From Alphaproteobacteria bacterium (GTDB lineage Bacteria > Pseudomonadota > Alphaproteobacteria > GCA-2746255): a stretch of DNA of 53,937 nucleotides. Below, piece by piece: positions 14,153-25,419 of the stretch (positions are counted from its first letter, which is position 1; each line of letters opens with the position of its first letter). Location of the stretch: NCBI GenBank assembly GCA_021776275.1, contig JAJFGH010000074.1, positions 1 through 53,937 of the forward strand. Direction: 5' to 3'. The notes under the pieces were generated by a model. That model saw nothing but the letters and a program-made list of their open reading frames with translations, searched no databases and was not told the origin of the DNA. The position numbers and the translations under genes are program-made.

Positions 14153-16339
14153 GTGTTACCTCGCATCCATTATGCGTCACCTCGCTGTCTTAAATTGCTC
14201 CTTGCGATGCTTGCCATCGCTTGTGCCACAATTTTTGTTTCCCGGTCAGCCTTGGCAGAAACCCGCTACGCCCTTTTGGTGGGCGTGAACGATTATGAAA
14301 GCCTACCGGCTTATCTGCAATTAAAAGGCCCGCGGAACGACGTGGAATTGGTTGCCGGCGTCCTTCAGGAAAATGGGTTTGAAGAATCCCACATCACCCT
14401 CCTGACGGACGGGCTGGAGGGCGCAAAAAAACCAACGCGCGCTGCTATTCTCTCCGAGCTTGGAAAGCTGGCCGCCAACGTTAAGAAAAAAGATTTTGTC
14501 TATCTCCATTTTTCCGGCCATGGCTCGCAACAGCCCATAAACCCTACGGCCAAAGGCACCGCCTGGGAGACGGACGGCCTTGATGAAATTTTTCTGCCAG
14601 GTGACATCGGCAAATGGGACAACGCCATCGGCAAGGTTGCGCGTTCGATCACGGATGACGAGCTGGGCGCTGCAATCACGAAAATTCGCAATCGCGGCGC
14701 TTTCGTTTGGGCGGTTTTCGATGCCTGCCACTCGGGAACCATGACGCGCGGCCTGCCCTCGGGTGAAGAAGCCATGCGTTTACGAAAAGTAGCGCCATCC
14801 AGCCTTGCCATTCCGGATTCGCTCTTCGAATCCGACATATCCTCTCTGCCGTCTTCGGCTAGGGAGGAAGGGCCAGGGTTTATGGAGGAAGCGGGTGGCT
14901 ACGTTGCCTTCTTTGCCGTGCAGACGACGGAAACGACACCGGAAATGCGCTTGCCGGCAGGCCATCCGGAACGCCGTTCCCAAGGTTTATTCACCTTCAC
15001 GGTGATGCAGGCGCTGGCCACGGACCCAGACGTGACCTATCGGCAACTTGGAGAGCGTGTGCTGCAGATTTATGCGTCCCAAAACCGCCGCAATCATACG
15101 CCCCTGTTCGAAGGAAGCGCACTGGACGCCCCGCTCTTCGGTAGCCGCCCGCAGCGCCAGGCGCGGCAATGGAAGGCCAAACGGAAAGACGATCTCCTCT
15201 ACATTGCCGCCGGCAGCCTTCATCAATTGGCGGAAGGGTCCATTTTCGCCATCGTAGCGAAGGCCAATTCGAGCCAGGACGCGGTTTTAGGCTATGTCCG
15301 CCTTGAAAAAGCGAACGTGTTGCAAAGCAGGCTTCTTCCCATTGCCCATCGGGGCGTCCCGGCCTTGGCATCAACGGACATCCCGGATCACGCTTATGCC
15401 CGTCTGGCATCCCAGCGCTTCACGCCCGGCATTCGAATAGCCAAGCCCCCTGCATCCACACCACCGTCACCGATAGACCGTGAAGTTGCATCGCTCCTCG
15501 ATGCGCTTGCCAAGGCATTGGGGAAAAAGGAGGACGGCATCGCCATCACGTGGGTTCCGCCGAACCAGATGGCGGATATCCGCTTGGCGATCGGAGAATC
15601 GCCGGACACCGCCGGCCCCGTTCTCTGGCTGTTGCCGCCGTCGAGCGAAATCGTAACGGAGGGTGCCGGCAAAACCCATTCCATCGCCCTGAACGCAGGC
15701 CGGGATGCCATCTACGAAAAGCTGGAGACAAGCTTTATGCGGATGGCCAAAATGTTCAACCTCTTGAAGCTTGCAAGCCAACTTTCCACAAGCCGGACCG
15801 CCAAAAAAATCGAGCTTTCGGCGAAAGTCACACGGGCGGGTACGGGAAAAACGGAACGCTATTTTCCTTCCGACATTCCCTATTTCCAGGCCAGCGATGT
15901 TGTCGAATTTGCAATCGCGAACCCAGGCCCCCTGCCTTTGGATCTGACCCTTCTGTTCGTCGATACCGATTTTGGCATCACGCCCCTTTTCCCCACCGAA
16001 GCGGGCGAAATCAACCGCATCGAAGCAGGGGGATTCTACACATTGCAAACCGAGGTAAATGCCGAGACGGTCGGCCTGGAACGCCTGATCGTAATCGCCG
16101 TCGAGGCCGAGGCGAACGCGCCGCTTGTTGAGTTCACTTTCCTTGCACAAGCGAGCCTTCCGCGCACGCGCGGGAGGAAGTCGAATGATTCCGCCACGCG
16201 TCCAAATGCCGAATTGGAAGCCATGTTCCGTCACGCGGGTTTCAACCCCCCACGAACGCGCGGACTGACTCCAGAGCGATCAACGTCGGAACGGGCCGGC
16301 ATGCGGATCTTCAGCTGGCAGACCTTGCCGCCGAAATAA
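14153..16339 (+). CDS. Secreted caspase-family (peptidase C14) protein with a C-terminal DUF4384-like domain
   Basis: Signal peptide, YALLVGVNDY, catalytic dyad contexts LHFSGHG and FDACHSG. The C-terminal segment ASDVVEFAIANPGPLPLDLTLLFVDTDFGITPLFP resembles DUF4384. Confidence 0.9.
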   Translation: MLPRIHYASPRCLKLLLAMLAIACATIFVSRSALAETRYALLVGVNDYESLPAYLQLKGPRNDVELVAGVLQENGFEESHITLLTDGLEGAKKPTRAAILSELGKLAANVKKKDFVYLHFSGHGSQQPINPTAKGTAWETDGLDEIFLPGDIGKWDNAIGKVARSITDDELGAAITKIRNRGAFVWAVFDACHSGTMTRGLPSGEEAMRLRKVAPSSLAIPDSLFESDISSLPSSAREEGPGFMEEAGGYVAFFAVQTTETTPEMRLPAGHPERRSQGLFTFTVMQALATDPDVTYRQLGERVLQIYASQNRRNHTPLFEGSALDAPLFGSRPQRQARQWKAKRKDDLLYIAAGSLHQLAEGSIFAIVAKANSSQDAVLGYVRLEKANVLQSRLLPIAHRGVPALASTDIPDHAYARLASQRFTPGIRIAKPPASTPPSPIDREVASLLDALAKALGKKEDGIAITWVPPNQMADIRLAIGESPDTAGPVLWLLPPSSEIVTEGAGKTHSIALNAGRDAIYEKLETSFMRMAKMFNLLKLASQLSTSRTAKKIELSAKVTRAGTGKTERYFPSDIPYFQASDVVEFAIANPGPLPLDLTLLFVDTDFGITPLFPTEAGEINRIEAGGFYTLQTEVNAETVGLERLIVIAVEAEANAPLVEFTFLAQASLPRTRGRKSNDSATRPNAELEAMFRHAGFNPPRTRGLTPERSTSERAGMRIFSWQTLPPK

Positions 16340-16356
16340 CGAAAAGACGGCGCGTC

Positions 16357-19239
16357 TTATTCCGCAGGCTTTAGAAGACTGGAAGGAAGAACGAGACGAA
16401 AGCCCGAAGGCACGGCCAACGGCCGTCGCGTCGTTGGGGTTTGTTTTCCGCCCGTTAATTCGAAGACCCGCTCGGACAGATAGACATCCAACATCGAGAC
16501 CGTGATGTAAGGCTTCTTTCGATAGGCGGCCTCTCCCCCAATGGCCTCCAGCAAGGCTTCCGTAAAGGCGCCGTTTCGCCAAACCTCGCTTTCCAATGAA
16601 AGCTGTTCGCTAGCCGAGGAAGCAAAAACCACAACGCCATATTCCGGGCTGGCAAGGTCGTTGACAACGCGGTTGACGTCTACGGGCGGACGATCCCCTC
16701 CCCAAACCCCGGCGGCATGGCAGGTATCGACGAAAAGGAACGTTCTGGCAGGAATGCTGGCCAGGGCGTCCCGGATTTTTTCATACGGCATCGCCGTTTC
16801 TTTCAAGCGTTCCGGATCCACTTTAGTCGGCAGGAAAAAATAATTTCCCTTTGCATCGTCAACGCCATGACCGGCAAAAAAGACGATGGCAACGTCGCCT
16901 GGCTGCGGCGCCGTTTGAATCCATTCGAGCCCTGCAAAAATATTTTCGAGAGATGCCTTATCATCCTGAAGAAGCTTAGTCTCTACGGAATGGTAAAGGC
17001 CTCCTTTTTGAAGCTTGGCGATCGCGGTGAAGTCGCGGGCATCCTGGTTCGCATAATTGAGCCGCAGCGCAGGATTTTCATAAGCACTTATCCCGACCGC
17101 CAATACGTAGAGCGTTGGCTTTCCGCCAGCCGCATTCCTGCCGGTCAAGGCGTAGGAAGCCGCTTCGCTATAGACGCCGTGACGATTCTTGGCGACAACC
17201 GAGATGCCCCTGGCATTTTTTGGAATTGTGACGTCAAGGCGATGCTGGGTGCCATCTGCCGTCGCCGCGATCTTTCCCTCGATGTCGGCGATCGGCCTGC
17301 CGTCCGCCATAATGCGGATTTCTGCCGCAGGCTCTCCGTTTGCCGAACGCAGGGAATAGCGAAGCGTAACCTGATCCGGGCCCGCCGCCTTCTCGGTGGC
17401 CTCGATCGAGATGACCGGAGGCAAGATCTCGGCAATGCCGCGTTGCCGTTGCTTGCGGCCGGCAGCGCGGTTGGCGGCGGCCAGCGCCTTGCCTTCGTCC
17501 AGAAAAGCCAGAACCTGGCCGACGACGTCCGGGCGGTAAAGGTCATCGCGAAAACGCGAGACGGAAAAGAAATCCGCGGCGTACCCCTTGCCCCGGTTCA
17601 CATGCCAACCGATGAGGTCGTCCCCGCCAGCGGAAGCCATGTAATAGCCCGAAGGCGTCCACGCCACCCACCGCTTGTCCCGGTGCGGGAAAAGGGCAAG
17701 CAGTTCTTCGCCATCGGCCACGCGATACCAACGGATGGTGCCATCCCCAAGGGCAAGAATGGCAAGCTTGCCGCTTTGCGCAACGTTGACGGCCCAGACC
17801 TGCTCGGGCGTTTGCACGTTCCAAATCTCTGCGCCCTTGCGGTCAAAATGGCGCAGGCGCCAACGGGTGCCCAACAGAAAGCTGTCGCCATCCGGCAGAA
17901 TGGCGAGGCTAAAGGCCCGTTCATGGCGCTTGAGGGGAAGCGGACGGCCCTGAAGGGTCGGCTCGCGGGAATCCCGCCAGTTTTCAATGACGAGCCCCTC
18001 GCCCTCGGTGACCGGCGGCAAGAAGCCATCTCCAGCCGCGGGCGGATCGCGCGTCAAAGCGCGCGCGGCAATCGAAAAACGCGCCGGCGACTGCCCCCAA
18101 CGATCAAAGCCGAAAAAAACGGTGCCGCCATCGGGGGAAACGAGAAACCGGTCGTCCAGATTTTGAAACTTCGCGATCGACGTCGTTTGCGTAAAAACCC
18201 TTCGGAAAGAAGAGTCGAAAGCGCCAAAGGCCGGGTCGTCACTTGCATAAAAAACGCCACCGTCTTTCCGCGCAAGCAGGTGCATCACCATATCTTGCGA
18301 AGCCGCTCTCTCAAGGCGCCGGCCTTTCCCGCTTTTGTCCCAGCGAAGAAGAAGCTTGCGACCGCCTTTCTCATATTTACCGGCGGCGAAAAGAAAACGG
18401 CCATCCAGAGACCAGGCAACCCGAGCTAAATTTCCCTTCTCGATGCCATTTATATCGGGCGTAAAAAGAAGCGCGAGATCGCGCGCGGAGAACACCTCTA
18501 CAAGCGGCTCATCATACCCCACGGCGATTTTCTCTCCATCCGGCGAAAAGCTCGCCATGACGGGGATTCGCGCCGGCAAGGACGGCGTCTTTGCGATCCG
18601 GCGAAAGGACGCATCGTAAAGCCGGACATGACCATCCAGAGAAGCCGTGACCAATCGGCCATCCTGGGCGAACTCGGCCGAAAGCGTATCGTCCTCGTAA
18701 TCCTTGTCTTCGGCGACAAGCCGAAAATCCTTTGCGTCATAGATTCGAAGGCCATGCTCCGACTTGAAAGTGACCGCCAGATAGTTGCCGTCTTGCGAAA
18801 AAGCCAAATGCAGGGGCCGAAGCGGCAAGTCGCCGATTCGACGGATCATCTGACCGGAAGCCGTCTCAAAGAGATAAAGGCTCCAGTCCTCGCCCCAGCC
18901 ACCGGTCCAACCACCCGCGACGATACGCTTGCCATCGGGAGAAACGGCCAGCGCATAGAGGGCGCCCTCCTTGCCGGCATCAATGGGCATGCGGATGACC
19001 CGGATCAGCTCGCCTTTCGGCAGCGCCCAAACCCGGATGGTCTTGTCATAAGAGGACGTAACGAGGATGCGGTTGGCGGCGTCCACGCCAAAGCGATTGA
19101 TCGAGGCCGTGTGGGTACCCGCCTCGATCCGGAGAATGGGGCTTTCCGGCGGAGCGGTACCTGCCGCTACAGCTTGACGCGCGCTGGAACCCATCGCCAA
19201 AAGGGCGCAAAAAACGCTTATAAAAGTAATGAATCTCAC
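16357..19239 (-). CDS. Secreted WD40-repeat protein with a C-terminal caspase (peptidase C14) domain
   Basis: 960 aa with a signal peptide. Multiple WD-like blades (SSYDKTIRVWAL, SLDGHVRLYD, LGDGTIRWYRV). C-terminal LYVLAVGISAYEN, FFAGHG and FVDTCHAAG. Confidence 0.9.
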   Translation of the reverse strand: MRFITFISVFCALLAMGSSARQAVAAGTAPPESPILRIEAGTHTASINRFGVDAANRILVTSSYDKTIRVWALPKGELIRVIRMPIDAGKEGALYALAVSPDGKRIVAGGWTGGWGEDWSLYLFETASGQMIRRIGDLPLRPLHLAFSQDGNYLAVTFKSEHGLRIYDAKDFRLVAEDKDYEDDTLSAEFAQDGRLVTASLDGHVRLYDASFRRIAKTPSLPARIPVMASFSPDGEKIAVGYDEPLVEVFSARDLALLFTPDINGIEKGNLARVAWSLDGRFLFAAGKYEKGGRKLLLRWDKSGKGRRLERAASQDMVMHLLARKDGGVFYASDDPAFGAFDSSFRRVFTQTTSIAKFQNLDDRFLVSPDGGTVFFGFDRWGQSPARFSIAARALTRDPPAAGDGFLPPVTEGEGLVIENWRDSREPTLQGRPLPLKRHERAFSLAILPDGDSFLLGTRWRLRHFDRKGAEIWNVQTPEQVWAVNVAQSGKLAILALGDGTIRWYRVADGEELLALFPHRDKRWVAWTPSGYYMASAGGDDLIGWHVNRGKGYAADFFSVSRFRDDLYRPDVVGQVLAFLDEGKALAAANRAAGRKQRQRGIAEILPPVISIEATEKAAGPDQVTLRYSLRSANGEPAAEIRIMADGRPIADIEGKIAATADGTQHRLDVTIPKNARGISVVAKNRHGVYSEAASYALTGRNAAGGKPTLYVLAVGISAYENPALRLNYANQDARDFTAIAKLQKGGLYHSVETKLLQDDKASLENIFAGLEWIQTAPQPGDVAIVFFAGHGVDDAKGNYFFLPTKVDPERLKETAMPYEKIRDALASIPARTFLFVDTCHAAGVWGGDRPPVDVNRVVNDLASPEYGVVVFASSASEQLSLESEVWRNGAFTEALLEAIGGEAAYRKKPYITVSMLDVYLSERVFELTGGKQTPTTRRPLAVPSGFRLVLPSSLLKPAE

Positions 19240-19290: not shown

Positions 19291-19320
19291 TTGACTTAAC
19301 CGGAAAGTTGGCATCAAAAT
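19291..19320 (+). promoter_or_regulatory. Candidate sigma70-type promoter of the peptide/radical SAM operon
   Basis: TTGACT (19291-19296), an 18-nt spacer, then CAAAAT (19315-19320), about 40 nt upstream of the first small ORF. Prediction by eye only. Confidence 0.3.
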
Positions 19321-19359
19321 CAATAGCCTGATTTTCATCGTCTCTTTGGGGGAACGGTC

Positions 19360-19506
19360 ATGAAAACGTCCAAATTGCTCGCCTGTTTTTTCGTCATCGC
19401 TTTCGCATTCGCCTCTTTCGCACCGGTCGTGATGCTTGGTGGCAACGCCCATGCGAGCGCCGGAACCGGCGAGGCCTGCGAAGCCGGCCCGGATGGGGAA
19501 TGCTAG
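19360..19506 (+). CDS. Small secreted Cys-containing peptide (48 aa, not in ORF track)
   Basis: GGGGGA ribosome-binding site 6-7 nt upstream of ATG 19360. Translates MKTSKLLACFFVIAFAFASFAPVVMLGGNAHA/SAGTGEACEAGPDGEC, a canonical Sec signal with an AHA cleavage site and a 16-aa mature part with a CX7C pair. TAG at 19504-19506. Confidence 0.5.
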   Translation: MKTSKLLACFFVIAFAFASFAPVVMLGGNAHASAGTGEACEAGPDGEC

Positions 19507-19553
19507 CGGCACACCAAATTGCTGCGAGCTTTCTAGCCCCTACCTTTCGGAGG

Positions 19554-20249
19554 ATGGCCGCGATGTTTTCGAAGCAGCCAAGATTCTTTCTTTTTGCGTT
19601 CAGCGCAGCGTTTCTTTTGACCTTTGCCGCACCCCAAGCCGCGGAAAAGGCGTCCAATGTCGAAGTGGAAACGCTGCGAAAGGTCAACCTGGCGCGCCAG
19701 ATCATTCAGCTTGGGATCGAAGACAAGGATCCCTTCGCCCTGATCGTCGCCGCCCGGATTTTCCGAGAAATCCCGCCAATTGAAGGGCCGCCGCCGAAGA
19801 AGATCAGCGGCAATTTGGCTGAGGACCGATCCACCGGCTCCGAGCAGATGTCCCTCGTTCTCGATCACTCGGTCGGCAATCTTTTGAAGAAGGCGCGGGA
19901 ATTTGCCGGTGACCGCCAGGACATTCTCGCCTTGATCGAGGACATTGCCGCCATGTCCCCCCGCGGCGCAGGCGGTGTCATACATCTGGATCAAATTCTT
20001 TCCGGCAAGACGGATGCCTATGAAATTACCTATGAGGGGAAAAAGCCCGCCGCTCTTTATATCGAAGCGCAGGACAACGTCGATTTGGACCTGCGCATCG
20101 AAGACAAGGCGGGAAAGAAAATCTGCGAGGACATGCGCCAGGGCGTTACCTCGCTTTGCGAATGGGACCCCGAAGAGACGGCGCCATTCGTCATCAAAAT
20201 CATCAACACAGACGACACACCAACCGAATACATTCTGTTGACGAATTAG
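19554..20249 (+). CDS. Secreted hypothetical protein, C-terminal beta-sandwich (pre-peptidase C-terminal-like) region
   Basis: ORF 19500..20249. Start is probably ATG 19554 or 19563, next to GGAGG. Signal peptide FFLFAFSAAFLLTFAAPQA. The C-terminus ALYIEAQDNVDLDLRIEDKAGKKICED...CEWD resembles PPC domains. Confidence 0.7.
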   Translation: MAAMFSKQPRFFLFAFSAAFLLTFAAPQAAEKASNVEVETLRKVNLARQIIQLGIEDKDPFALIVAARIFREIPPIEGPPPKKISGNLAEDRSTGSEQMSLVLDHSVGNLLKKAREFAGDRQDILALIEDIAAMSPRGAGGVIHLDQILSGKTDAYEITYEGKKPAALYIEAQDNVDLDLRIEDKAGKKICEDMRQGVTSLCEWDPEETAPFVIKIINTDDTPTEYILLTN

Positions 20250-20267
20250 GCCGTTGACGATGGGGGC

Positions 20268-20492
20268 ATGAGACAAATGACAGCGCGCCTACCTTTTAGA
20301 AAACGAACCATTCAGAAAGCTTCCCGCTGGACATTGGCGCTGGTGAGCGCCTTCGGCCTTGGCGCGATTTCCACGCCGCCCGCCATGGCCGCCGAAAGTG
20401 AAAAACCAATCGGCCCGATCGCATCCGATGCCGGGGCAGAAATGTTGGCTCAAACCAGCTGCGGCTGCGCCGTGACCGGGGTGCGGGGGTAA
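20268..20492 (+). CDS. Candidate RiPP precursor peptide A1 (signal-peptide-like leader, core ...EMLAQTSCGCAVTGVRG)
   Basis: 71-74 aa (ATG 20268 or 20277). Paralog of A2. Differences between the copies are concentrated at synonymous third positions in this frame. Located immediately upstream of the radical SAM gene. Confidence 0.65.
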   Translation: MRQMTARLPFRKRTIQKASRWTLALVSAFGLGAISTPPAMAAESEKPIGPIASDAGAEMLAQTSCGCAVTGVRG

Positions 20493-20505
20493 AAGGAGTA
20501 CGAGC

Positions 20506-20709
20506 TTGCCATTGAGAAAACGCACGATCCGAAAAGCCGCCCATTGGGCCCTGGCGTTGATGGGCGCCTTTGGCCTTGGCGCTTCTCCCACATCCACCAT
20601 GGCCGCCAAGGCGGAAAGCTCCCCCTTGCCGACAGCCCCCGATGCCGAGGCGGAAATGCTGGCCCAGAATTGTTGCAGCACCACCACCGTGACCGGAGTG
20701 CGGGGTTAG
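20506..20709 (+). CDS. Candidate RiPP precursor peptide A2 (core ...EMLAQNCCSTTTVTGVRG)
   Basis: TTG start 7 nt after an AAGGAG ribosome-binding site. 67 aa. Shares the RKRTI-K...W-LAL--AFGLGA N-region and the EMLAQ...VTGVRG C-terminus with A1. Confidence 0.65.
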   Translation: MPLRKRTIRKAAHWALALMGAFGLGASPTSTMAAKAESSPLPTAPDAEAEMLAQNCCSTTTVTGVRG

Positions 20710-20742
20710 GGAAACCGAACCCAGGCACCCGCCCATACGCCG

Positions 20743-22512
20743 TTGCGAATTCTTCGTATCCTCCCTCCCGGTCGCTTTCCGACGGTCGTCCACGACCCAG
20801 GCCGTTGGCTGGACCGTCTCGCCACGGATCCCGGCATCGAGGTCCTCTCCTACAGCTTGAACCATGCCTGGTGGCGTGTCCTCTGTTCGCCCGCCGTCTG
20901 GAAGGCCGTGCTCGCCCCCCTCTCCGCGACCCAGCGCCTGCGCAGACGTCTCGAATGGTCGGCCGCGGATTTTGAAGCAAAGGCAGGCACCAAAGCCGCC
21001 GCCGAGGCGCTTGCGAATTTCTACCGGCCGGAAACCTATGCCAATCGGGAAGCCTATTTTACGGCCGTCATGGCCCTTGCCAGGCACGTGGAGGCCTTAA
21101 ACGGCGCGCAAGATGAATTGACGTTTTCCCTACAGCATGGGGTCCTAGCGCATGGGCTGAATTATCGGGCAAGCGCGGAACTGGTCCGGTACGCAAACCG
21201 TGACACGCTGCTTGCGCGTTCGATGGTGGCGGCCCTCGAAGACTGTCCGGAAGCGGTGGATCTGCTTTGCCTCTCCGCCAACTCACCGTTTGATTTTCTG
21301 ACGGCGCTTATCGCCGCCCGCCTTCTTCGCGAGCGCCATCCGCGTCTTCACATATGTCTCACCGATCATGGTTATGAGAATTTCTCCCTGCAGCCGCATC
21401 TCGATCGCCTCCGCCAAGCCGGTACGCTGGACACGATTTTCGACACGGTGATCGAATCGCGGGACGAGCGGGACGTCATTTTGCCGGCGCTAGCCCAGCG
21501 GATAGCGGCCCAAAAACCCATCCGCGGTTTCTTGCGGAAAACCGAATTCCCAGAAGCTCCAGCGGCTTCCTCCGCACAAGCCTTGCCCGCCCCTCTTGTG
21601 CCGACCTTCTCAAGCGAACCGGTGCTGTGGACGCGCATTAGCCAACGGCGCTGTTATTGGAGCCGCTGCACGTTCTGCACGCAAAATTCAAAATATGATG
21701 ACCCGCGGGTGCCTACGAAGTCCGAAATTGCCGGCGCTTTGGATCGCATTCAGGCACAAATCACCGCCGGTTATCGGAACCTGCATTTCTCGGACGAAGC
21801 CGTATCGCCGGCGCTTCTCCGCCTTTTCAGCGAAGGCATCCTGGAGCGTGGCCTTTCTTTTCGCTGGGGATGCCGGTGCAAGCTTGACCCCTCGCAGACG
21901 CCCGAGCTGTTTCGTCTTGCCCGCGAGGCGGGGTGCTACGAAATCATCTTCGGGCTTGAGAGCATCTCGCCGCGCGTTCAAAAATTGATGGACAAGCATG
22001 TGGAGGGATTGGATCAAGAGCGGATTGCCGAAATTTTTGGCGCCGTCCACGGGGCGGGGATTGCCCTTTTCATCAATTTGATCGCCGGCTTCCCAGGTGA
22101 TACGCCCGAGGAAACGACGGCATCCGTGGCGTTCCTGATCGACACGTGTCAAAATTTCGAAAACACAACCTATGTTTTGAACCCCTTCGGGCTTTTCCCC
22201 GCGACGCCGATCATGGACAACCCCGCCGCCTTCGGCGTTGTTCCCATTGAGGCGGCAGGCGATATGGTGTCGGCCTATGGCTACGATCTGGACCCAAAAA
22301 TCCGCGACGCCACCTTGGCAGCCGCCGCGGCCATGCCCGAGATGAAAGCGCGCCTGAACGCCGCGTTTGGCTGGGATCGGCTGGGCCTTGGCGCAACCCT
22401 TGAGACGGTGCAGGCGCTTTATTTCGAAATGGGTCATGGCGCCCTTTTCAAGGCCATGCCCCATAACCCATTGGCAAATTTTGCCGGAAGACCCGATCGG
22501 CGCGCCTCATGA
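20743..22512 (+). CDS. Radical SAM protein with an N-terminal B12-binding-like domain and atypical CX4CX2C cluster motif
   Basis: 589 aa. RRCYWSRCTFCTQ at nt 21652-21678 (Cys304, Cys309, Cys312). The downstream region (GCYEIIFGLES, INLIAGFPGDT) is typical of class-B-like radical SAM cores. No C-terminal Cys-rich SPASM/twitch region. Confidence 0.88.
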   Translation: MRILRILPPGRFPTVVHDPGRWLDRLATDPGIEVLSYSLNHAWWRVLCSPAVWKAVLAPLSATQRLRRRLEWSAADFEAKAGTKAAAEALANFYRPETYANREAYFTAVMALARHVEALNGAQDELTFSLQHGVLAHGLNYRASAELVRYANRDTLLARSMVAALEDCPEAVDLLCLSANSPFDFLTALIAARLLRERHPRLHICLTDHGYENFSLQPHLDRLRQAGTLDTIFDTVIESRDERDVILPALAQRIAAQKPIRGFLRKTEFPEAPAASSAQALPAPLVPTFSSEPVLWTRISQRRCYWSRCTFCTQNSKYDDPRVPTKSEIAGALDRIQAQITAGYRNLHFSDEAVSPALLRLFSEGILERGLSFRWGCRCKLDPSQTPELFRLAREAGCYEIIFGLESISPRVQKLMDKHVEGLDQERIAEIFGAVHGAGIALFINLIAGFPGDTPEETTASVAFLIDTCQNFENTTYVLNPFGLFPATPIMDNPAAFGVVPIEAAGDMVSAYGYDLDPKIRDATLAAAAAMPEMKARLNAAFGWDRLGLGATLETVQALYFEMGHGALFKAMPHNPLANFAGRPDRRAS

Positions 22513-23414
22513 CGACGGTCTTTCTCACCGGCGCTTCCGGCCAGCTTGGCCAAGCGGTGGCAGGCGAGTTGCTGGCCCGGGGCCATGAGGTGGCGGCGAT
22601 GGTGCGCCGGCCCGTTTTTCCCAAGGGTTGTCGCCCGGTTCTCGGCACGCTCGAAGACGTCGGCCAATTGGCCCATGAGATAGCCAAGGCCGACGCCATC
22701 GTCCATGTCGCATCGGCACGCAGCAACAACCGGGAAGAGGTGGTTCAGAAGGACATCCTTGGCACTGGGCATCTTCTCGATGCCTGGGCGCGAGGAAACT
22801 TCGTCTATGCCAGCAGCCAGACGGTTTACGGCGTGCCCCAAGGCGACCTTACCGAGGCCGCCCCCTTGCAACCGGTCGTCTGGTACGACCTTGGAAAAAT
22901 CTGCAACGAATTTCAAATCGCAATGGCGGCGGAAACGGGCAATCGTGGCGCCGGCCTTTCCCTTCGCATGGCCGTCATGTTTGGCCCCGTTGCAAAAAGC
23001 AAAGGCCCGCCGCAATTTCACGAGATGATTTACGAGGAATGCCAAAAAGGCAGCGCGTTTCTCCTGGATTCGGAGGAGGCGCTTGAAACCTACGGCACGT
23101 CCTTCATCGGCGATCGCGACTTGGCACGCGCCATCGCCGATTCTATCAGCCTTACCGAGACCGGCCCCTACAACATCGCCGGGCCTTTCTGCAGCTGGAA
23201 GGAATTGATTGAAACCATCGACCGATTTGCCGGCACGCGGTCGAAATTCATCTTTCGGAAAGGCGCCGTGCCAAAGCCTGGGGAATTCCGCTTGCCGCAA
23301 TCGCGCTCGTTTATCAATTCACAAAAATTCGACGCGGCAACGGGCTTTTGCGCAGAACAAACTTTGGAAGAACTGATTGAGCGGTTTGTCCAATTTCGCA
23401 GCGACTCTAAATAA
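22509..23414 (+). CDS. NAD(P)-dependent epimerase/dehydratase family (extended SDR) protein
   Basis: TGASGQLGQAVAGELLARGHEV Rossmann motif and a YDLGK (YxxxK) catalytic motif. ATGA overlap with the radical SAM stop. Confidence 0.9.
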   Translation: MTTVFLTGASGQLGQAVAGELLARGHEVAAMVRRPVFPKGCRPVLGTLEDVGQLAHEIAKADAIVHVASARSNNREEVVQKDILGTGHLLDAWARGNFVYASSQTVYGVPQGDLTEAAPLQPVVWYDLGKICNEFQIAMAAETGNRGAGLSLRMAVMFGPVAKSKGPPQFHEMIYEECQKGSAFLLDSEEALETYGTSFIGDRDLARAIADSISLTETGPYNIAGPFCSWKELIETIDRFAGTRSKFIFRKGAVPKPGEFRLPQSRSFINSQKFDAATGFCAEQTLEELIERFVQFRSDSK

Positions 23415-23442
23415 AAAGGCCCGCGCAAAGCGCGGGCCCTTT
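23415..23442. terminator. Strong bidirectional rho-independent terminator
   Basis: AAAAGGCCCGCGC-AAA-GCGCGGGCCCTTT. Separates the SDR gene (+) from cspA (-). Confidence 0.85.
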
Positions 23443-23466
23443 CATTTCATCTTATCCGCAGCCGGA

Positions 23467-23676
23467 TTAGTCGGCGAGCTTCAAATTGCCGGCAAAGGTT
23501 TTACCATTCTGCCCGCTCTCAAGCTCATACTCGACCTGCTGACCTTCATTGAGGCCCGGCAGTCCAGCACGCTCGACCGCTGAAACATGGACGAAGACAT
23601 CCTTCGATCCATCTTCTGGCGTAATAAACCCATATCCTTTGACAGGGTTGAACCATTTCACGGTTCCAGTACTCAT
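23467..23676 (-). CDS. cspA: Cold-shock protein (CspA family)
   Basis: [34 protein letters not shown]... contains the RNP1/RNP2 motifs. Start at 23676 after an AAGAAGGAA ribosome-binding site. Confidence 0.95.
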
Positions 23677-23884
23677 TTGACTTATTCCTTCTTTAATTGT
23701 CATAGCCGCCCGCACGTTACGCGTAGGCGCGTCCTCGTTAAAAAATTCCTGGGGTATAGCAGCTAGGTCGGCTTGACAAAGCAGGATACGTCCGGGTCTT
23801 CGAAGACGAAGAGGATGATATAGGGCGAAGGCCACAAAATTTCAAAGAATTTGTAAAAACCCCTTGTAAATCAGGGGGGATAGG

Positions 23885-24199: not shown

Positions 24200-24847
24200 T
24201 TGGATACGAACGTCCCATATATGCCGTCGGTGACCAACCTCCAGAAAATCTTGGACGCAATCCAAAAGGCTGGCGTTCCTGAAGTTTTTAATCTCGACTT
24301 TTTGAAGGACTTAGGATTTACGAGTTCCAATGATCGACCAGTAATCAAGGTCTTGAAATATCTCGGTATGCTAGACCCTTCAGGGCACCCGCAGACTGCT
24401 TACCGTGAGTTTGTTGACCATACTAAGGCAAAGGGAGTGCTCGCAGGGCGCATACGCGCCGCCTTCGACGACCTTTACCTCAGCGACAAGGATGCTCACA
24501 ACAAATCTGCAGAACAGCTTAAAGGCTGGTTCAAAACCAAAACAGGTGCAAGTGATTCTGTCGCGAAAAAGATGGCAACGCAGTTCAAATCACTTGCAGC
24601 CTACGCTGATTTCACAGCCGCCCTGGATGCTGAACCCAAAACCCCAGAGGCGGAGCCTGAAAAGAAAGATAAAATTGAGCCAGAAAAAAACGATAAGGAG
24701 AAGCCAACGGATTTACCGCCGCCTCCCATATCTGACATGAAGGGTTTGGGCTTTGTTTATCGGCTGGAAATTCATCTTCCTGACACGCAGAATGTGGAAA
24801 CGTTTCGCGCGATTTTCCGTGCTCTGCGAGAAGAGCTCATGCCGTGA
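24200..24847 (+). CDS. DUF5343-like protein
   Basis: TTG start after an AAGGAGGA ribosome-binding site. The N-terminal VPYMPSVTNLQKILDAIQKAGVPEVFNLDFLKDLGFTSSNDRPVIKVLKYLGMLD pattern matches my recollection of DUF5343. Acidic/Lys-rich linker. Confidence 0.65.
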   Translation: MDTNVPYMPSVTNLQKILDAIQKAGVPEVFNLDFLKDLGFTSSNDRPVIKVLKYLGMLDPSGHPQTAYREFVDHTKAKGVLAGRIRAAFDDLYLSDKDAHNKSAEQLKGWFKTKTGASDSVAKKMATQFKSLAAYADFTAALDAEPKTPEAEPEKKDKIEPEKNDKEKPTDLPPPPISDMKGLGFVYRLEIHLPDTQNVETFRAIFRALREELMP

Positions 24848-25419
24848 AATCACAGATAAACGATTTTGTCTTCACCGGGGTCCTGGCTTCACACTGCATC
24901 CGTGACCTGCAAGCTAAAGGTCTCCTCCGAACGCCAGCGGTAACACCTGACGAACGGCGCGAACAAGATTTGTTCGCACCGGTCCCGGAAAGTATCCGCG
25001 GCGGCTCCATTCAGATGCAGCGCTGGTATCGAATGCTATTTGTATTTGAGAATCTCGTGCGAGACTTCATTATTACTCGCTTAAAGGAACTAGACGGAGA
25101 AGGTTGGTTTGAAAAACGTGCATCAAGCCAGATGAAGAAAAAAGTCGAGGATCGGGAGAAGAATGAGGAAAAAAATCAATGGCATATCGGTAGAAATAAG
25201 CAGCCTATTTTCTATCTGGATTTCGGCGACCTTGGGCTCCTTATCACCAACCACTGGAACGTTTTCAACGATTTCTTCGATAATCAAGCTTGGGTCATTA
25301 GCCGCATTCAGGATGCAGAGCGGACGAGAAATGTTATCGCGCACACGAATCTCCTGTCCTCTGAAGAAGGAGAACGTCTCGAAATGTATTTACGAGACTT
25401 CTTAAGGCAGATCGGTTGA
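24844..25419 (+). CDS. Swt1-like HEPN domain protein (putative RNase)
   Basis: GTGA overlap with the upstream gene. Rx4H motif RNVIAH at nt 25327-25344, with an upstream helix FENLVRDFI typical of HEPN. Confidence 0.7.
   Translation: MKSQINDFVFTGVLASHCIRDLQAKGLLRTPAVTPDERREQDLFAPVPESIRGGSIQMQRWYRMLFVFENLVRDFIITRLKELDGEGWFEKRASSQMKKKVEDREKNEEKNQWHIGRNKQPIFYLDFGDLGLLITNHWNVFNDFFDNQAWVISRIQDAERTRNVIAHTNLLSSEEGERLEMYLRDFLRQIG

What the first reader, a model, noticed from the sequence alone, without database searches (positions are those of the whole stretch)
19291..23442. Compact six-gene operon: three small secreted Cys peptides, a secreted protein, an atypical radical SAM and an SDR; candidate undescribed RiPP-like system
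All six ORFs are on one strand with gaps of 0-50 nt. In order they are a 48-aa peptide, a secreted protein of about 230 aa, peptide A1, peptide A2, a 589-aa radical SAM and a 301-aa SDR. A TTGACT/CAAAAT promoter-like element precedes them, and the strongest terminator in the window closes them (23415-23442).

Small paralogous peptides directly upstream of a radical SAM maturase are the classic RiPP gene-cluster signature. Three things are unusual here:
- The precursors carry Sec-type signal-peptide-like N-termini rather than a recognisable leader family. This is reminiscent of bufferins, which use MNIO enzymes, not radical SAM.
- No peptidase, ABC exporter or RiPP recognition-element (PqqD-like) protein is present in the operon.
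- The only tailoring partner is an NAD(P) epimerase/dehydratase-type SDR.

I do not recognise this combination as any named RiPP class.
Basis: partly seen in the sequence, partly recalled or inferred. Interest (0 to 1): 0.92.

Follow-up and report, generated by a model that had tools for sequence, protein, structure and literature searches.

The report
Radical SAM system marking GVRG-tailed peptides
The operon is real, and its core (two small exported peptides, an unusual radical SAM enzyme and a reductase-type partner) belongs to a rare, apparently undescribed family found across many bacterial phyla, in which the enzyme gene sits next to proteins that all end in the same tail, ...A-V-x-G-V-R-G.

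Summary
The small ORFs are under purifying selection against a syntenic relative (dN/dS 0.2-0.5).

The 589-aa radical SAM has an invariant CX4CX2C motif and matches no curated family. About 60-70 clusters at 50% identity exist, spread over at least 9 phyla.

In 60 near-full-length loci:
- An extended SDR lies beside the radical SAM in 43. In at least 7 proteins the two are fused.
- In 41, an adjacent ORF ends in [A/G]-[V/I]-x-[G/A]-[V/I]-[R/K]-G-stop.

The proteins carrying this tail are otherwise unrelated: Cys-loop peptides, CC peptides (as in the window), poly-Pro peptides, ~160-aa cytoplasmic proteins and ~550-aa membrane proteins. Enzyme clades track tail classes.

It needs correcting on three points:
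- The hallmark is the C-terminal tail, not the cysteines.
- The 48-aa peptide lacks the tail.
- The secreted 228-aa protein is a lineage-specific accessory, also linked to caspase-like proteases.

The chemistry is unknown. I found no description in NCBIfam, Pfam or open-access literature.

The parts
19291..19320 (+). Sigma-70-like promoter candidate (TTGACT, 18 nt, CAAAAT)
   Evidence: Found by the pattern scan. Almost the same sequence (TTGACTTAACCG...GGCATCAAAAT) lies upstream of the orthologous operon in L036. Function is not shown.
19360..19506 (+). pep0: a 48-aa exported peptide. It has a signal peptide ending ...AHA and a predicted mature part SAGTGEACEAGPDGEC with two Cys. It has no GVRG tail.
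   Evidence: There are two orthologues in L036 (57-58% identity, dN/dS 0.2-0.37). It is absent from all other radical SAM loci. It is an accessory and probably not a radical SAM substrate.
19563..20249 (+). ORF2: a 228-aa secreted protein with a signal peptide, a helical region, an invariant RGAGG motif and a C-terminal beta-sandwich with a conserved Cys pair.
   Evidence: The 228-aa form is in the protein collection. The family is rare, with 13 clusters. The AF2 model has pLDDT 77. Foldseek matches the last ~92 residues to GOLD, pre-peptidase C-terminal and collagen-binding domains, with TM up to 0.8 normalised to the target. It sits next to the radical SAM system in the window, L014, L029, L036, L041 and L055, and next to C14/CHAT proteases in L036, L039, L040, L041 and L043.
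20268..20492 (+). A1: a 74-aa precursor with a Sec-type signal peptide (...PPAMA|AESEK), ending ...TSCGCAVTGVRG.
   Evidence: The tail matches the family motif. The orthologue in L036 ends CSCCCAVTGVRG; dN/dS is 0.21.
20506..20709 (+). A2: a 67-aa precursor with a Sec-type signal peptide (...TSTMA|AKAES), ending ...NCCSTTTVTGVRG.
   Evidence: AAGGAG RBS 7 nt before the TTG. The tail matches the family motif. The orthologue in L036 ends NTWCCAVTGVRG; dN/dS is 0.49.
20743..22512 (+). Radical SAM enzyme, 589 aa. It has a Rossmann-like N-terminal domain, a radical SAM barrel and a helical C-terminal part. The CX4CX2C motif is at C304/C309/C312, with further invariant C377 and C398.
   Evidence: PF04055 is the only Pfam hit. 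The best NCBIfam hits (PhpK family, ApyD) score 65 and 64 bits against cut-offs of 600 and 750. It has 141 homologues at 38-52% identity. The AF2 model has pLDDT 91. Nearest folds are MiaB, AprD4, MgmA, OxsB, TokK and TsrM, with TM 0.35-0.56.
22509..23414 (+). Extended SDR, 301 aa (NAD(P) epimerase/dehydratase fold). It is the partner of the radical SAM.
   Evidence: PF01370 at 4.9e-19. G8xxG11xxG14, S102, Y126 and K130 are conserved in at least 18 of 20 orthologues. It is directly downstream of the radical SAM in most loci and fused to it in about 900-aa proteins. The Arg-Arg after strand 2 (MVRRP) suggests NADP(H); this is inference.
23418..23448 (+). Intrinsic-terminator-like hairpin (9 G-C pairs, loop of 3) followed by a T-rich stretch.
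   Evidence: It lies between the SDR stop and the convergent cold-shock gene at 23467-23835 (-).
14153..19239 (.). Context: two signal-peptide-bearing caspase-family (Peptidase_C14) proteins. One is 728 aa on the + strand; the other is a 960-aa WD40-caspase on the - strand, divergent from the operon.
   Evidence: The same pair is syntenic in L036. Caspase or CHAT proteases recur beside ORF2 relatives but are absent from most radical SAM loci. The link to the operon is uncertain.

Best explanation
The core of the locus is a ribosomal peptide/protein modification system with three parts:
- substrate proteins whose only shared feature is the C-terminal tail [A/G]-[V/I]-x-[G/A]-[V/I]-[R/K]-G-COOH (here A1 and A2);
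- a family-specific radical SAM enzyme (CX4CX2C, Rossmann-like N-domain);
- usually an NAD(P)-dependent extended SDR.

Proposed mechanism, all inferred:
1. In the cytoplasm the radical SAM binds the free C-terminal tail. It uses a 5'-deoxyadenosyl radical to modify a residue within the last few positions. The terminal Gly is the most likely site, because it is the only position invariant in the 36 catalogued tails. The neighbouring Val or Arg is the alternative.
2. The SDR then carries out a hydride-transfer step (reduction or oxidation) on the radical SAM product. The known AprD4 (radical SAM) / AprD3 (NADPH reductase) pair works this way.
3. A1 and A2 are then exported by their Sec-type signal peptides and trimmed to peptides of about 33 aa whose CC/CGC motif lies just before the modified tail.

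ORF2 (a periplasmic beta-sandwich protein) and pep0 are lineage-specific periplasmic accessories. They may be tied to the neighbouring secreted caspase-like proteases.

Shown: gene order, conservation, co-occurrence, fusion, and co-diversification of enzyme and tail.
Inferred: that the tail is the substrate site, the order of steps, and export after modification.
Unknown: the chemical change.
For: Tail association:
- In 34 genome loci, 29 of 7404 stop-to-stop segments end in G[VILM][RK]G. Almost all are on the radical SAM strand, 0-720 nt upstream of the radical SAM, or just past the SDR.
- The window has only A1 and A2 with the full tail among 1180 segments.
- An independent metagenome set repeats the pattern. 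Overall, 41 of 60 near-full-length loci have a tail ORF.
- In 36 tails, position -1 is G in 36/36, -2 is R in 32 and K in 4, -3 is V in 28 and I in 8, -4 is G in 32 and A in 4, -6 is V in 24, and -7 is A in 21.

Tail carriers are unrelated scaffolds: signal-peptide Cys-loop peptides, CC peptides, poly-Pro peptides, ~160-aa proteins with no signal peptide, and ~500-570-aa polytopic membrane proteins. The tail is the only thing the enzyme could recognise in common.

Enzyme clades track tail classes:
- Enzymes in the fused-enzyme clade pair with ...NGGV[ML]GIKG.
- The SDR-less alphaproteobacterial clade pairs with ...PPPPAVGAVRG.
- The membrane-protein clade pairs with ...ERAVSGVRG.
- The ORF2 clade pairs with CC or His-rich tails.

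SDR partnership: adjacency in 43 of 60 loci, radical SAM-SDR fusions, and an intact catalytic Ser-Tyr-Lys.

RiPP-type tailoring genes lie in sister loci: a P4H-like 2OG oxygenase, an FkbM methyltransferase and DUF6065 next to poly-Pro tails, and a LanM-dehydratase-like DUF4135 next to ...CCGNCGTCGVRG.

Nearest characterised relatives act on peptide or protein substrates or pair with a reductase:
- ApyD methylates the penultimate residue of a C-terminal GYLYD motif (PMC11117315).
- AprD4 works with its NADPH reductase AprD3 (PMC5461906).
- MgmA and RimO are protein-modifying enzymes.

The small ORFs are under purifying selection.
Against: - No mass or activity data exist, so adjacency is the only link between enzyme and tail.
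- About a third of loci show no canonical tail ORF. Some of these are truncated contigs. Others have variant ends...TSG[SA]NG...AGARG...GATRG...G[GT]KA, or unrelated small peptides in the clade with tandem radical SAM genes. The variants weaken the argument that Arg, Val or even the terminal Gly is the chemical site.
- 17 of 60 loci lack an adjacent SDR, so the SDR step is not obligatory.
- An unmodified peptide tail has no obvious SDR substrate, so the SDR role is argued by analogy only.
- A cytoplasmic iron-sulfur enzyme acting on Sec substrates requires modification before export, which is untested.
Confidence: 0.6

Rival explanations
1. The tail is only a docking 'follower' sequence. The radical SAM chemistry happens on the variable core just upstream, for example thioether or other cross-links on the CC, CGC or C-x6-7-C motifs. 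The SDR tailors that product.
For: - Cys residues lie immediately before the tail in many small substrates: the window, and L001, L003, L009, L014, L015, L021, L029, L036, L046, L048 and L061.
- Follower peptides and core-directed radical SAM cross-linking are established RiPP logic (general knowledge).
- ApyD itself carries a recognition domain and acts close to the C-terminus.
Against: - Whole substrate classes have no Cys and no shared residue upstream of the tail: the poly-Pro peptides, L020, L022, L012 and L044.
- The enzyme has no SPASM/twitch auxiliary-cluster domain. Only C377 and C398 are conserved beyond the SAM cluster.
Confidence: 0.2
2. The tail residues are the raw material for a small diffusible product, such as a peptide-derived cofactor or metabolite. 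This would resemble mycofactocin, which is made from the C-terminal ...GVY of MftA. The upstream protein would be a disposable scaffold.
For: - Only the last ~7 residues are conserved, while everything upstream is free to vary.
- The combination of a C-terminal G-V-x tail, a radical SAM and SDR-family proteins recalls the mycofactocin system (my own knowledge).
Against: - No conserved peptidase is present to release a product.
- Using 500-aa polytopic membrane proteins as scaffolds would be wasteful.
- Signal peptides and Cys-rich cores argue that the whole peptide is the product.
- There are no matches to Mft families.
Confidence: 0.07
3. The radical SAM and SDR act together on a non-peptide substrate (sugar nucleotide, lipid or cofactor). 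The tail proteins are unrelated neighbours, or only acceptors or carriers.
For: - The SDR's weak best hits are to lipid or sugar enzymes: OleD, HpnA and sugar epimerases/dehydratases.
- The radical SAM's weak hits include HpnJ and AprD4.
- Radical SAM plus SDR pairs are known from small-molecule pathways: AprD4/AprD3 and TunB/TunA (my own knowledge).
Against: - The tail-ORF adjacency and the enzyme/tail co-diversification across at least 9 phyla are hard to explain without a direct link.
- No glycosyltransferase, lipid or sugar-pathway genes are conserved around the pair.
- All family scores are far below cut-offs.
Confidence: 0.08
4. The tail is a processing or sorting signal read by the neighbouring secreted caspase-family proteases. 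Orthocaspases and metacaspases cleave after Arg or Lys, so cleavage or transpeptidation would fall at GVR|G. The radical SAM/SDR would do something else.
For: - Two secreted C14 proteins flank the operon in the window and in L036.
- ORF2 relatives sit by C14/CHAT proteases in five further contexts.
- The basic residue at position -2 fits a P1 preference for Arg/Lys (my own knowledge of orthocaspases).
Against: - No caspase homologue lies within 6 kb of the radical SAM in any of the 34 GTDB genome loci. The exceptions found by other routes are the window, L036 and L041.
- The tail tracks the radical SAM, not the protease.
- Removing a single Gly is an odd function.
Confidence: 0.05

Closest known systems
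Aminopyruvatide pathway enzyme ApyD (B12-dependent radical SAM; NCBIfam NF050148)
   Same: - It is one of the two best-scoring named families (7.4e-18), and the match spans the N-domain and the barrel.
- It acts on a ribosomal peptide close to its C-terminus: beta-methylation of the penultimate Tyr of ...GYLYD (PMC11117315).
   Different: - The score is 64 bits against a cut-off of 750, so this protein is not a member.
- ApyD carries an RRE and a cobalamin domain. Here there is no RRE hit and no PF02310 hit in any of 20 members.
- The cluster motif is CX4CX2C.
- The partner is an SDR rather than an MNIO or P450.
- The tail motif is different.
AprD4 / AprD3 (radical SAM 1,2-diol dehydratase plus NADPH reductase, apramycin pathway)
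   Same: - AprD4 is the best PDB match by sequence profile (9e-8) and second by fold.
- It has a B12-like N-domain without a demonstrated need for B12 (my own knowledge).
- It works as an obligate pair with an NADPH-dependent reductase (PMC5461906). That is the logic I propose for the radical SAM plus SDR here.
   Different: - Its substrate is an aminoglycoside, not a peptide.
- The NCBIfam AprD4 model scores 15 bits against a cut-off of 500.
- Identity is 14% and TM is 0.44-0.55.
- No diol exists in an unmodified peptide tail.
Bufferins (MNIO-modified, Sec-exported Cys peptides; PMC11626156, PMC12452194)
   Same: - Small precursors have Sec signal peptides instead of classical leaders.
- Cys-containing cores are modified in the cytoplasm and then exported.
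- There is no dedicated exporter or leader peptidase in the cluster. This matches A1/A2.
   Different: - The enzyme class is entirely different. There is no MNIO/DUF692 protein and no DUF2063-type partner.
- The conserved element here is the extreme C-terminal tail, and many substrates lack Cys or a signal peptide.
Mycofactocin (MftA ...GVY tail, radical SAM MftC)
   Same: A radical SAM enzyme acts on the last residues of a small ribosomal peptide whose conserved part is a C-terminal G-V-x tail. SDR-family enzymes are part of the wider system (my own knowledge).
   Different: - MftC is a SPASM-domain enzyme with the RRE partner MftB, plus a peptidase and other enzymes. None of these is present or matched.
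- The tails here sit on exported peptides and on large proteins.

Membership tests
Radical SAM superfamily | A three-Cys motif binding the [4Fe-4S] cluster within a partial TIM barrel (PF04055) | tested here: met
   PF04055 at 5.5e-10, above the gathering score. All 20 members match. The Cys spacing is the non-canonical CX4CX2C and is invariant. The barrel fold is confirmed by the AF2 model and Foldseek.
Class B (cobalamin-dependent) radical SAM enzymes | An N-terminal cobalamin-binding Rossmann domain (PF02310) preceding the radical SAM domain | tested here: inconclusive
   PF02310 is not detected in any of 20 family members even at E<=1. The predicted fold has a Rossmann-like N-domain. It superposes both on B12 enzymes (OxsB, TokK, TsrM, MgmA) and on non-B12 ones (AprD4, MiaB, RimO). 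All NCBIfam B12-rSAM models score far below their cut-offs.
SPASM/twitch radical SAM peptide maturases | A C-terminal Cys-rich auxiliary-cluster domain; often an N-terminal or separate PqqD-like RRE | tested here: not met
   There is no SPASM or PqqD Pfam/NCBIfam hit at E<=1. Only two Cys (C377, C398) are conserved outside the SAM-cluster motif.
RiPP (ribosomally synthesised, post-translationally modified peptide) system | A gene-encoded precursor co-located with its modifying enzyme(s) | tested here: met
   Tail-bearing ORFs lie next to the radical SAM in 41 of 60 loci. Tail classes co-vary with enzyme clades. Extra RiPP-type tailoring genes lie in sister loci.
RiPP (ribosomally synthesised, post-translationally modified peptide) system | A demonstrated post-translational modification, and leader/core organisation with proteolytic release | not testable with these tools
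   No mass-spectrometry or expression data are available. The N-terminal part looks like a Sec signal peptide rather than a leader. Some carriers are full-size proteins.
Extended SDR (NAD(P) epimerase/dehydratase family, PF01370) | A GxxGxxG dinucleotide fold and a catalytic Ser/Thr-Tyr-Lys | tested here: met
   PF01370 at 4.9e-19. G8/G11/G14, S102, Y126 and K130 are conserved in at least 18 of 20 orthologues. No specific equivalog applies: the best is OleD at 38 bits against a cut-off of 580.
Bufferin / MNIO RiPPs | An MNIO (DUF692) enzyme with its partner protein | tested here: not met
   No such domain is present in any of the six proteins. Only the Sec-signal-peptide precursor style is shared.

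The most novel reading that the evidence does not exclude
The A-V-x-G-V-R-G tail is a portable C-terminal tag. A dedicated radical SAM enzyme, usually with an SDR, converts the end of the polypeptide, most likely the terminal glycine, into a new chemical group. Possibilities include an oxygen-independent amidation-type cleavage, a C-alkylated or otherwise capped terminus, or an adduct built with an SDR-made partner. The tag is used on exported peptides, on cytoplasmic proteins and on polytopic membrane proteins alike. That would make it a previously unrecognised kind of enzymatic protein C-terminal modification, not just another RiPP class.
Probability: 0.3. Interest if true: 0.9.

Novelty: new variant of a known kind. 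Interest (0 to 1): 0.78.

Why it matters
Radical SAM enzymes that modify ribosomal peptides are a main source of new peptide chemistry. New families are usually found through a shared recognition domain or a SPASM domain, and this family has neither. It nevertheless comes with an unusually clean, testable handle: a 7-residue C-terminal tail shared by otherwise unrelated proteins in at least 9 phyla, and a partner SDR that is sometimes fused to the enzyme.

If the tail is the modification site, three things follow:
- It would define a new enzymatic way to alter protein C-termini. Because only the tail seems to be needed, it might be transferable as a tag.
- It would add a second enzyme class, after the MNIO enzymes of bufferins, to the small group of cytoplasmically modified, Sec-exported peptides.
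- It would give a function to an uncharted clade of Rossmann-plus-radical-SAM enzymes with a CX4CX2C cluster motif.

Tried and rejected
1. A near-identity DNA search of the operon against plasmids gave no match.

2. Exact-sequence look-up gave no names or accessions, and A1/A2 are not in the collection with these starts. The source organism stays unidentified.

3. Six literature searches for the motif or the gene combination found nothing relevant. One query was malformed. The AprD4/AprD3 primary paper was not held.

4. I tried to model the enzyme with the tail by linking paired radical SAM and tail sequences into a 17-row alignment.

5. A crude hydropathy count could not settle the topology of the large membrane carriers, so I cannot say which side of the membrane their tails face.

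6. I considered a glycyl-radical-enzyme analogy (the RVxG motif and its activases). I rejected it because the enzyme is not activase-like in size or fold, and a stable radical at a free C-terminus is implausible.

7. I considered a MiaB/RimO-type methylthiotransferase, since MiaB is the top fold hit. I rejected it because the N-domain has no conserved Cys for the second cluster.

8. I looked for a caspase link as a general feature. I rejected it because there are no caspase hits in the 34 genome loci.

9. Sister families found by the exhaustive search are also uncurated, so they give no functional lead.

Full report
**Observation**

The six ORFs are present as described, all on the + strand:
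- pep0, 19360-19506
- ORF2, 19500/19563-20249
- A1, 20268-20492
- A2, 20506-20709
- a 589-aa radical SAM, 20743-22512
- a 301-aa SDR, 22509-23414, overlapping the radical SAM by 4 nt

The promoter-like TTGACT-18-CAAAAT lies at 19291-19320, and a hairpin with 9 G-C pairs lies at 23418-23438. A2 has a good AAGGAG ribosome-binding site. The 228-aa form of ORF2 is the one held in the protein collection.

The radical SAM cluster motif is CYWSRCTFC, that is CX4CX2C. It is invariant in 20 homologues, together with C377 and C398.

A relative from a metagenome assembly (L036; proteins 70-76% identical) has the same order: caspase, WD40-caspase (- strand), two pep0-like peptides, ORF2, two peptides, radical SAM, SDR. 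It also has an almost identical promoter-like sequence. Against L036, dN/dS is 0.20-0.37 for pep0, 0.21 for A1, 0.49 for A2, and 0.12-0.15 for the three larger proteins. The small ORFs are therefore real genes.

**What the proteins are**

Pfam sees only the radical SAM core (PF04055) and the SDR fold (PF01370). The four smaller proteins match nothing. NCBIfam gives only weak sub-threshold hits for the radical SAM:
- PhpK family, 65 bits against a cut-off of 600
- ApyD, 64 bits against 750
- HpnJ, BzaD and AprD4, lower still

An AlphaFold model built on 20 homologues is confident (pLDDT 91). Foldseek places it with enzymes that combine a Rossmann-like N-domain with the radical SAM barrel: MiaB, AprD4, MgmA, OxsB, TokK, TsrM and RimO. 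Identity is only 14-18% and TM is 0.35-0.56. A PDB sequence-profile search puts AprD4 first (9e-8).

The cobalamin-binding Pfam domain is not detected in any of 20 members even at E<=1. The N-domain has no conserved Cys for a second cluster. Cobalamin dependence is therefore open.

The SDR keeps GxxGxxG and the Ser-Tyr-Lys triad in at least 18 of 20 orthologues. The basic pair after strand 2 suggests NADP(H); this is inference.

**The family and its neighbours**

The word-indexed search found 141 homologues (38-52% identity) in many phyla. Several are ~900-aa radical SAM-SDR fusions. The exhaustive profile search shows only about 60-70 full-length representatives at 50% identity. Beyond these lie more distant, equally uncurated sister families.

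I fetched 34 genome loci and 41 metagenome loci. The genome loci come from Binatia, Elusimicrobiota, Alpha- and Betaproteobacteria, Acidobacteriota, Chloroflexota, Vampirovibrionales, Planctomycetia, Bacillota and Brevinematales.

The SDR is directly downstream of the radical SAM in most loci. The decisive result is in the ORFs beside the enzyme:
- In the genome loci, 29 of 7404 stop-to-stop segments end in G-[VILM]-[RK]-G. Nearly all lie on the enzyme's strand within 0-720 nt upstream of it, or just after the SDR.
- In the window, only A1 and A2 carry the full tail among 1180 segments.
- The metagenome set repeats the pattern independently.
- Over 60 loci with a near-full-length enzyme, 41 have at least one such ORF and 43 have an adjacent SDR.

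From 36 tails the motif is [A/G]-[V/I]-x-[G/A]-[V/I]-[R/K]-G-stop, with G at -1 in 36 of 36.

**Who carries the tail**

The carriers share nothing else:
- Signal-peptide peptides with a C-x6-7-C loop (...LACGGWxxPxC...AVxGVRG).
- CC or His-rich peptides that come with ORF2. The window has CGCAVTGVRG and CCSTTTVTGVRG. L036, L014, L029, L041 and L055 are similar.
- Poly-Pro peptides (...PPPPPPPAVGAVRG), in loci that also hold a prolyl-hydroxylase-type 2OG oxygenase, DUF6065 and an FkbM methyltransferase.
- ~160-aa proteins without a signal peptide, ending ...IQTNGGVMGIKG, in the clade that includes the fused radical SAM-SDR enzymes.
- 480-570-aa polytopic membrane proteins ending ...ERAVSGVRG or ...AVAGVRG.
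- A peptide ...YCCGNCGTCGVRG next to a LanM-dehydratase-like protein.

Clustering the enzymes by sequence groups them by tail class, which is what enzyme-substrate co-evolution predicts.

Loci without a canonical tail are partly truncated contigs. Others show variant ends right before the enzyme...TSG[SA]NG on SH3-domain proteins...AGARG...GATRG and ...G[GT]KA. A clade with tandem radical SAM genes has unrelated small peptides.

**The accessory genes**

ORF2 is a rare family with 13 clusters. It has a signal peptide, helices, an invariant RGAGG motif and a C-terminal beta-sandwith with a Cys pair. The sandwich is of the GOLD / pre-peptidase-C-terminal type. It looks like a binding module, not an enzyme.

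ORF2 accompanies the radical SAM system only in the CC/His tail lineage. More distant ORF2 relatives sit next to secreted caspase (C14) or CHAT proteases with no radical SAM nearby. L041 has CHAT, C14, ORF2, a peptide, the radical SAM and the SDR together.

In the window, both upstream caspase-family proteins have signal peptides, and the 728-aa one has the catalytic His and Cys motifs.

pep0 is conserved only in L036. It ends in Cys, not in the tail.

I therefore read the 'six-gene operon' as a four-gene core (A1, A2, radical SAM, SDR) plus two lineage-specific periplasmic accessories. The connection of those accessories to the caspase-like proteases is unexplained.

**Mechanism**

What is shown is genetic: adjacency, fusion, co-diversification and purifying selection.

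From this I infer that the radical SAM recognises the free C-terminal tail and modifies it. The invariant terminal Gly has the most easily abstracted C-alpha hydrogen in a peptide and is the only invariant position in the canonical tails, so it is the best single guess for the site. The Val/Ile and Arg/Lys positions are alternatives. The variant tails in outlying clades caution against over-reading any one of them.

The SDR most plausibly performs a hydride step on the radical SAM product. The precedent is AprD4 with its NADPH reductase AprD3. ApyD gives a precedent for a related enzyme acting next to a peptide C-terminus.

Because the enzyme needs a reduced iron-sulfur cluster, A1 and A2 would be modified before Sec export, as in bufferins.

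The chemistry itself cannot be derived from sequence. It could be methylation, an amidation-like cleavage, a cross-link or an adduct.

**Rivals**

- The tail may be only a docking follower, with chemistry on the Cys-rich cores. This is contradicted by Cys-free carriers.
- The tail may be the source of a small cofactor, as in mycofactocin. No releasing peptidase is conserved, and large membrane carriers would be wasteful.
- The enzyme pair may act on a small molecule. This does not explain the tail association.
- The tail may be a caspase processing site. No caspase lies within 6 kb of the enzyme in any of the 34 genome loci.

**Novelty**

- No NCBIfam (release of June 2026) or Pfam model covers the enzyme, the tail peptides, ORF2 or the large carriers.
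- Six full-text searches found no description.
- Only open-access papers and preprints were searchable, so prior description in a subscription journal cannot be excluded.

I class this as a new variant of a known kind: radical SAM modification of ribosomal products. There is a fair chance that the modification itself is a new type of protein C-terminal chemistry.

Noticed in passing
window 14153-16339 (+) and 16357-19239 (-): Two caspase-family (Peptidase_C14) proteins, both with signal peptides. One has WD40 repeats and a weak match to the 'EACC1-associated caspase' model. The pair is syntenic in L036. C14 or CHAT proteases recur beside ORF2-family genes in L039, L040, L041 and L043, sometimes together with HtrA-like proteases.
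   Followed up: partly
window 24200-25419 (+): A DUF5343 gene followed by a Swt1-like HEPN gene, with a 194-aa ORF of unknown family after them. They sit in a stretch of lower G+C (about 0.50 against 0.58). This may be a small toxin or defence module.
   Followed up: no
proteins P0183, P0186, P0188, P0194, P0196, P0197: Giant proteins of 1300-2300 aa that contain three or four tandem B12-radical-SAM-like domains. P0183 passes the 'RiPP maturation radical SAM C-methyltransferase' cut-off with four stretches.
   Followed up: no
L021 2362-4462: Here the radical SAM is followed by a 570-aa protein with a LanM-dehydratase-like DUF4135 domain. After it comes a 78-aa peptide ending YCCGNCGTCGVRG. No SDR is present.
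   Followed up: partly
L008, L013, L017, L019, L023, L032: The poly-Pro tail peptides (...PPPPPPPAVGAVRG) come with a conserved trio: a prolyl-hydroxylase-type 2OG-Fe(II) oxygenase, DUF6065 and an FkbM methyltransferase. These loci mostly lack the SDR.
   Followed up: partly
L007 6001-9733, L059, L057: A clade in which L007 has two tandem paralogous radical SAM genes and no SDR. Its upstream small signal-anchored peptides end ...AGQGSLA or ...EEMYGGC instead of the GVRG tail.
   Followed up: no
L004 2359-3626 and L052: Two tandem ~200-aa SH3-domain proteins directly upstream of the radical SAM end in ...AMTSGSNG and ...AMTSGANG. This may be a variant tail with Asn in place of Arg.
   Followed up: partly
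L006, L010, L018, L027, L031, L056, L063: The large tail carriers are polytopic membrane proteins with no Pfam match. Before the tail they share a conserved Cys motif: ADNCxxLxDC, or SC[VQ][ED]PTCCFG.
   Followed up: no
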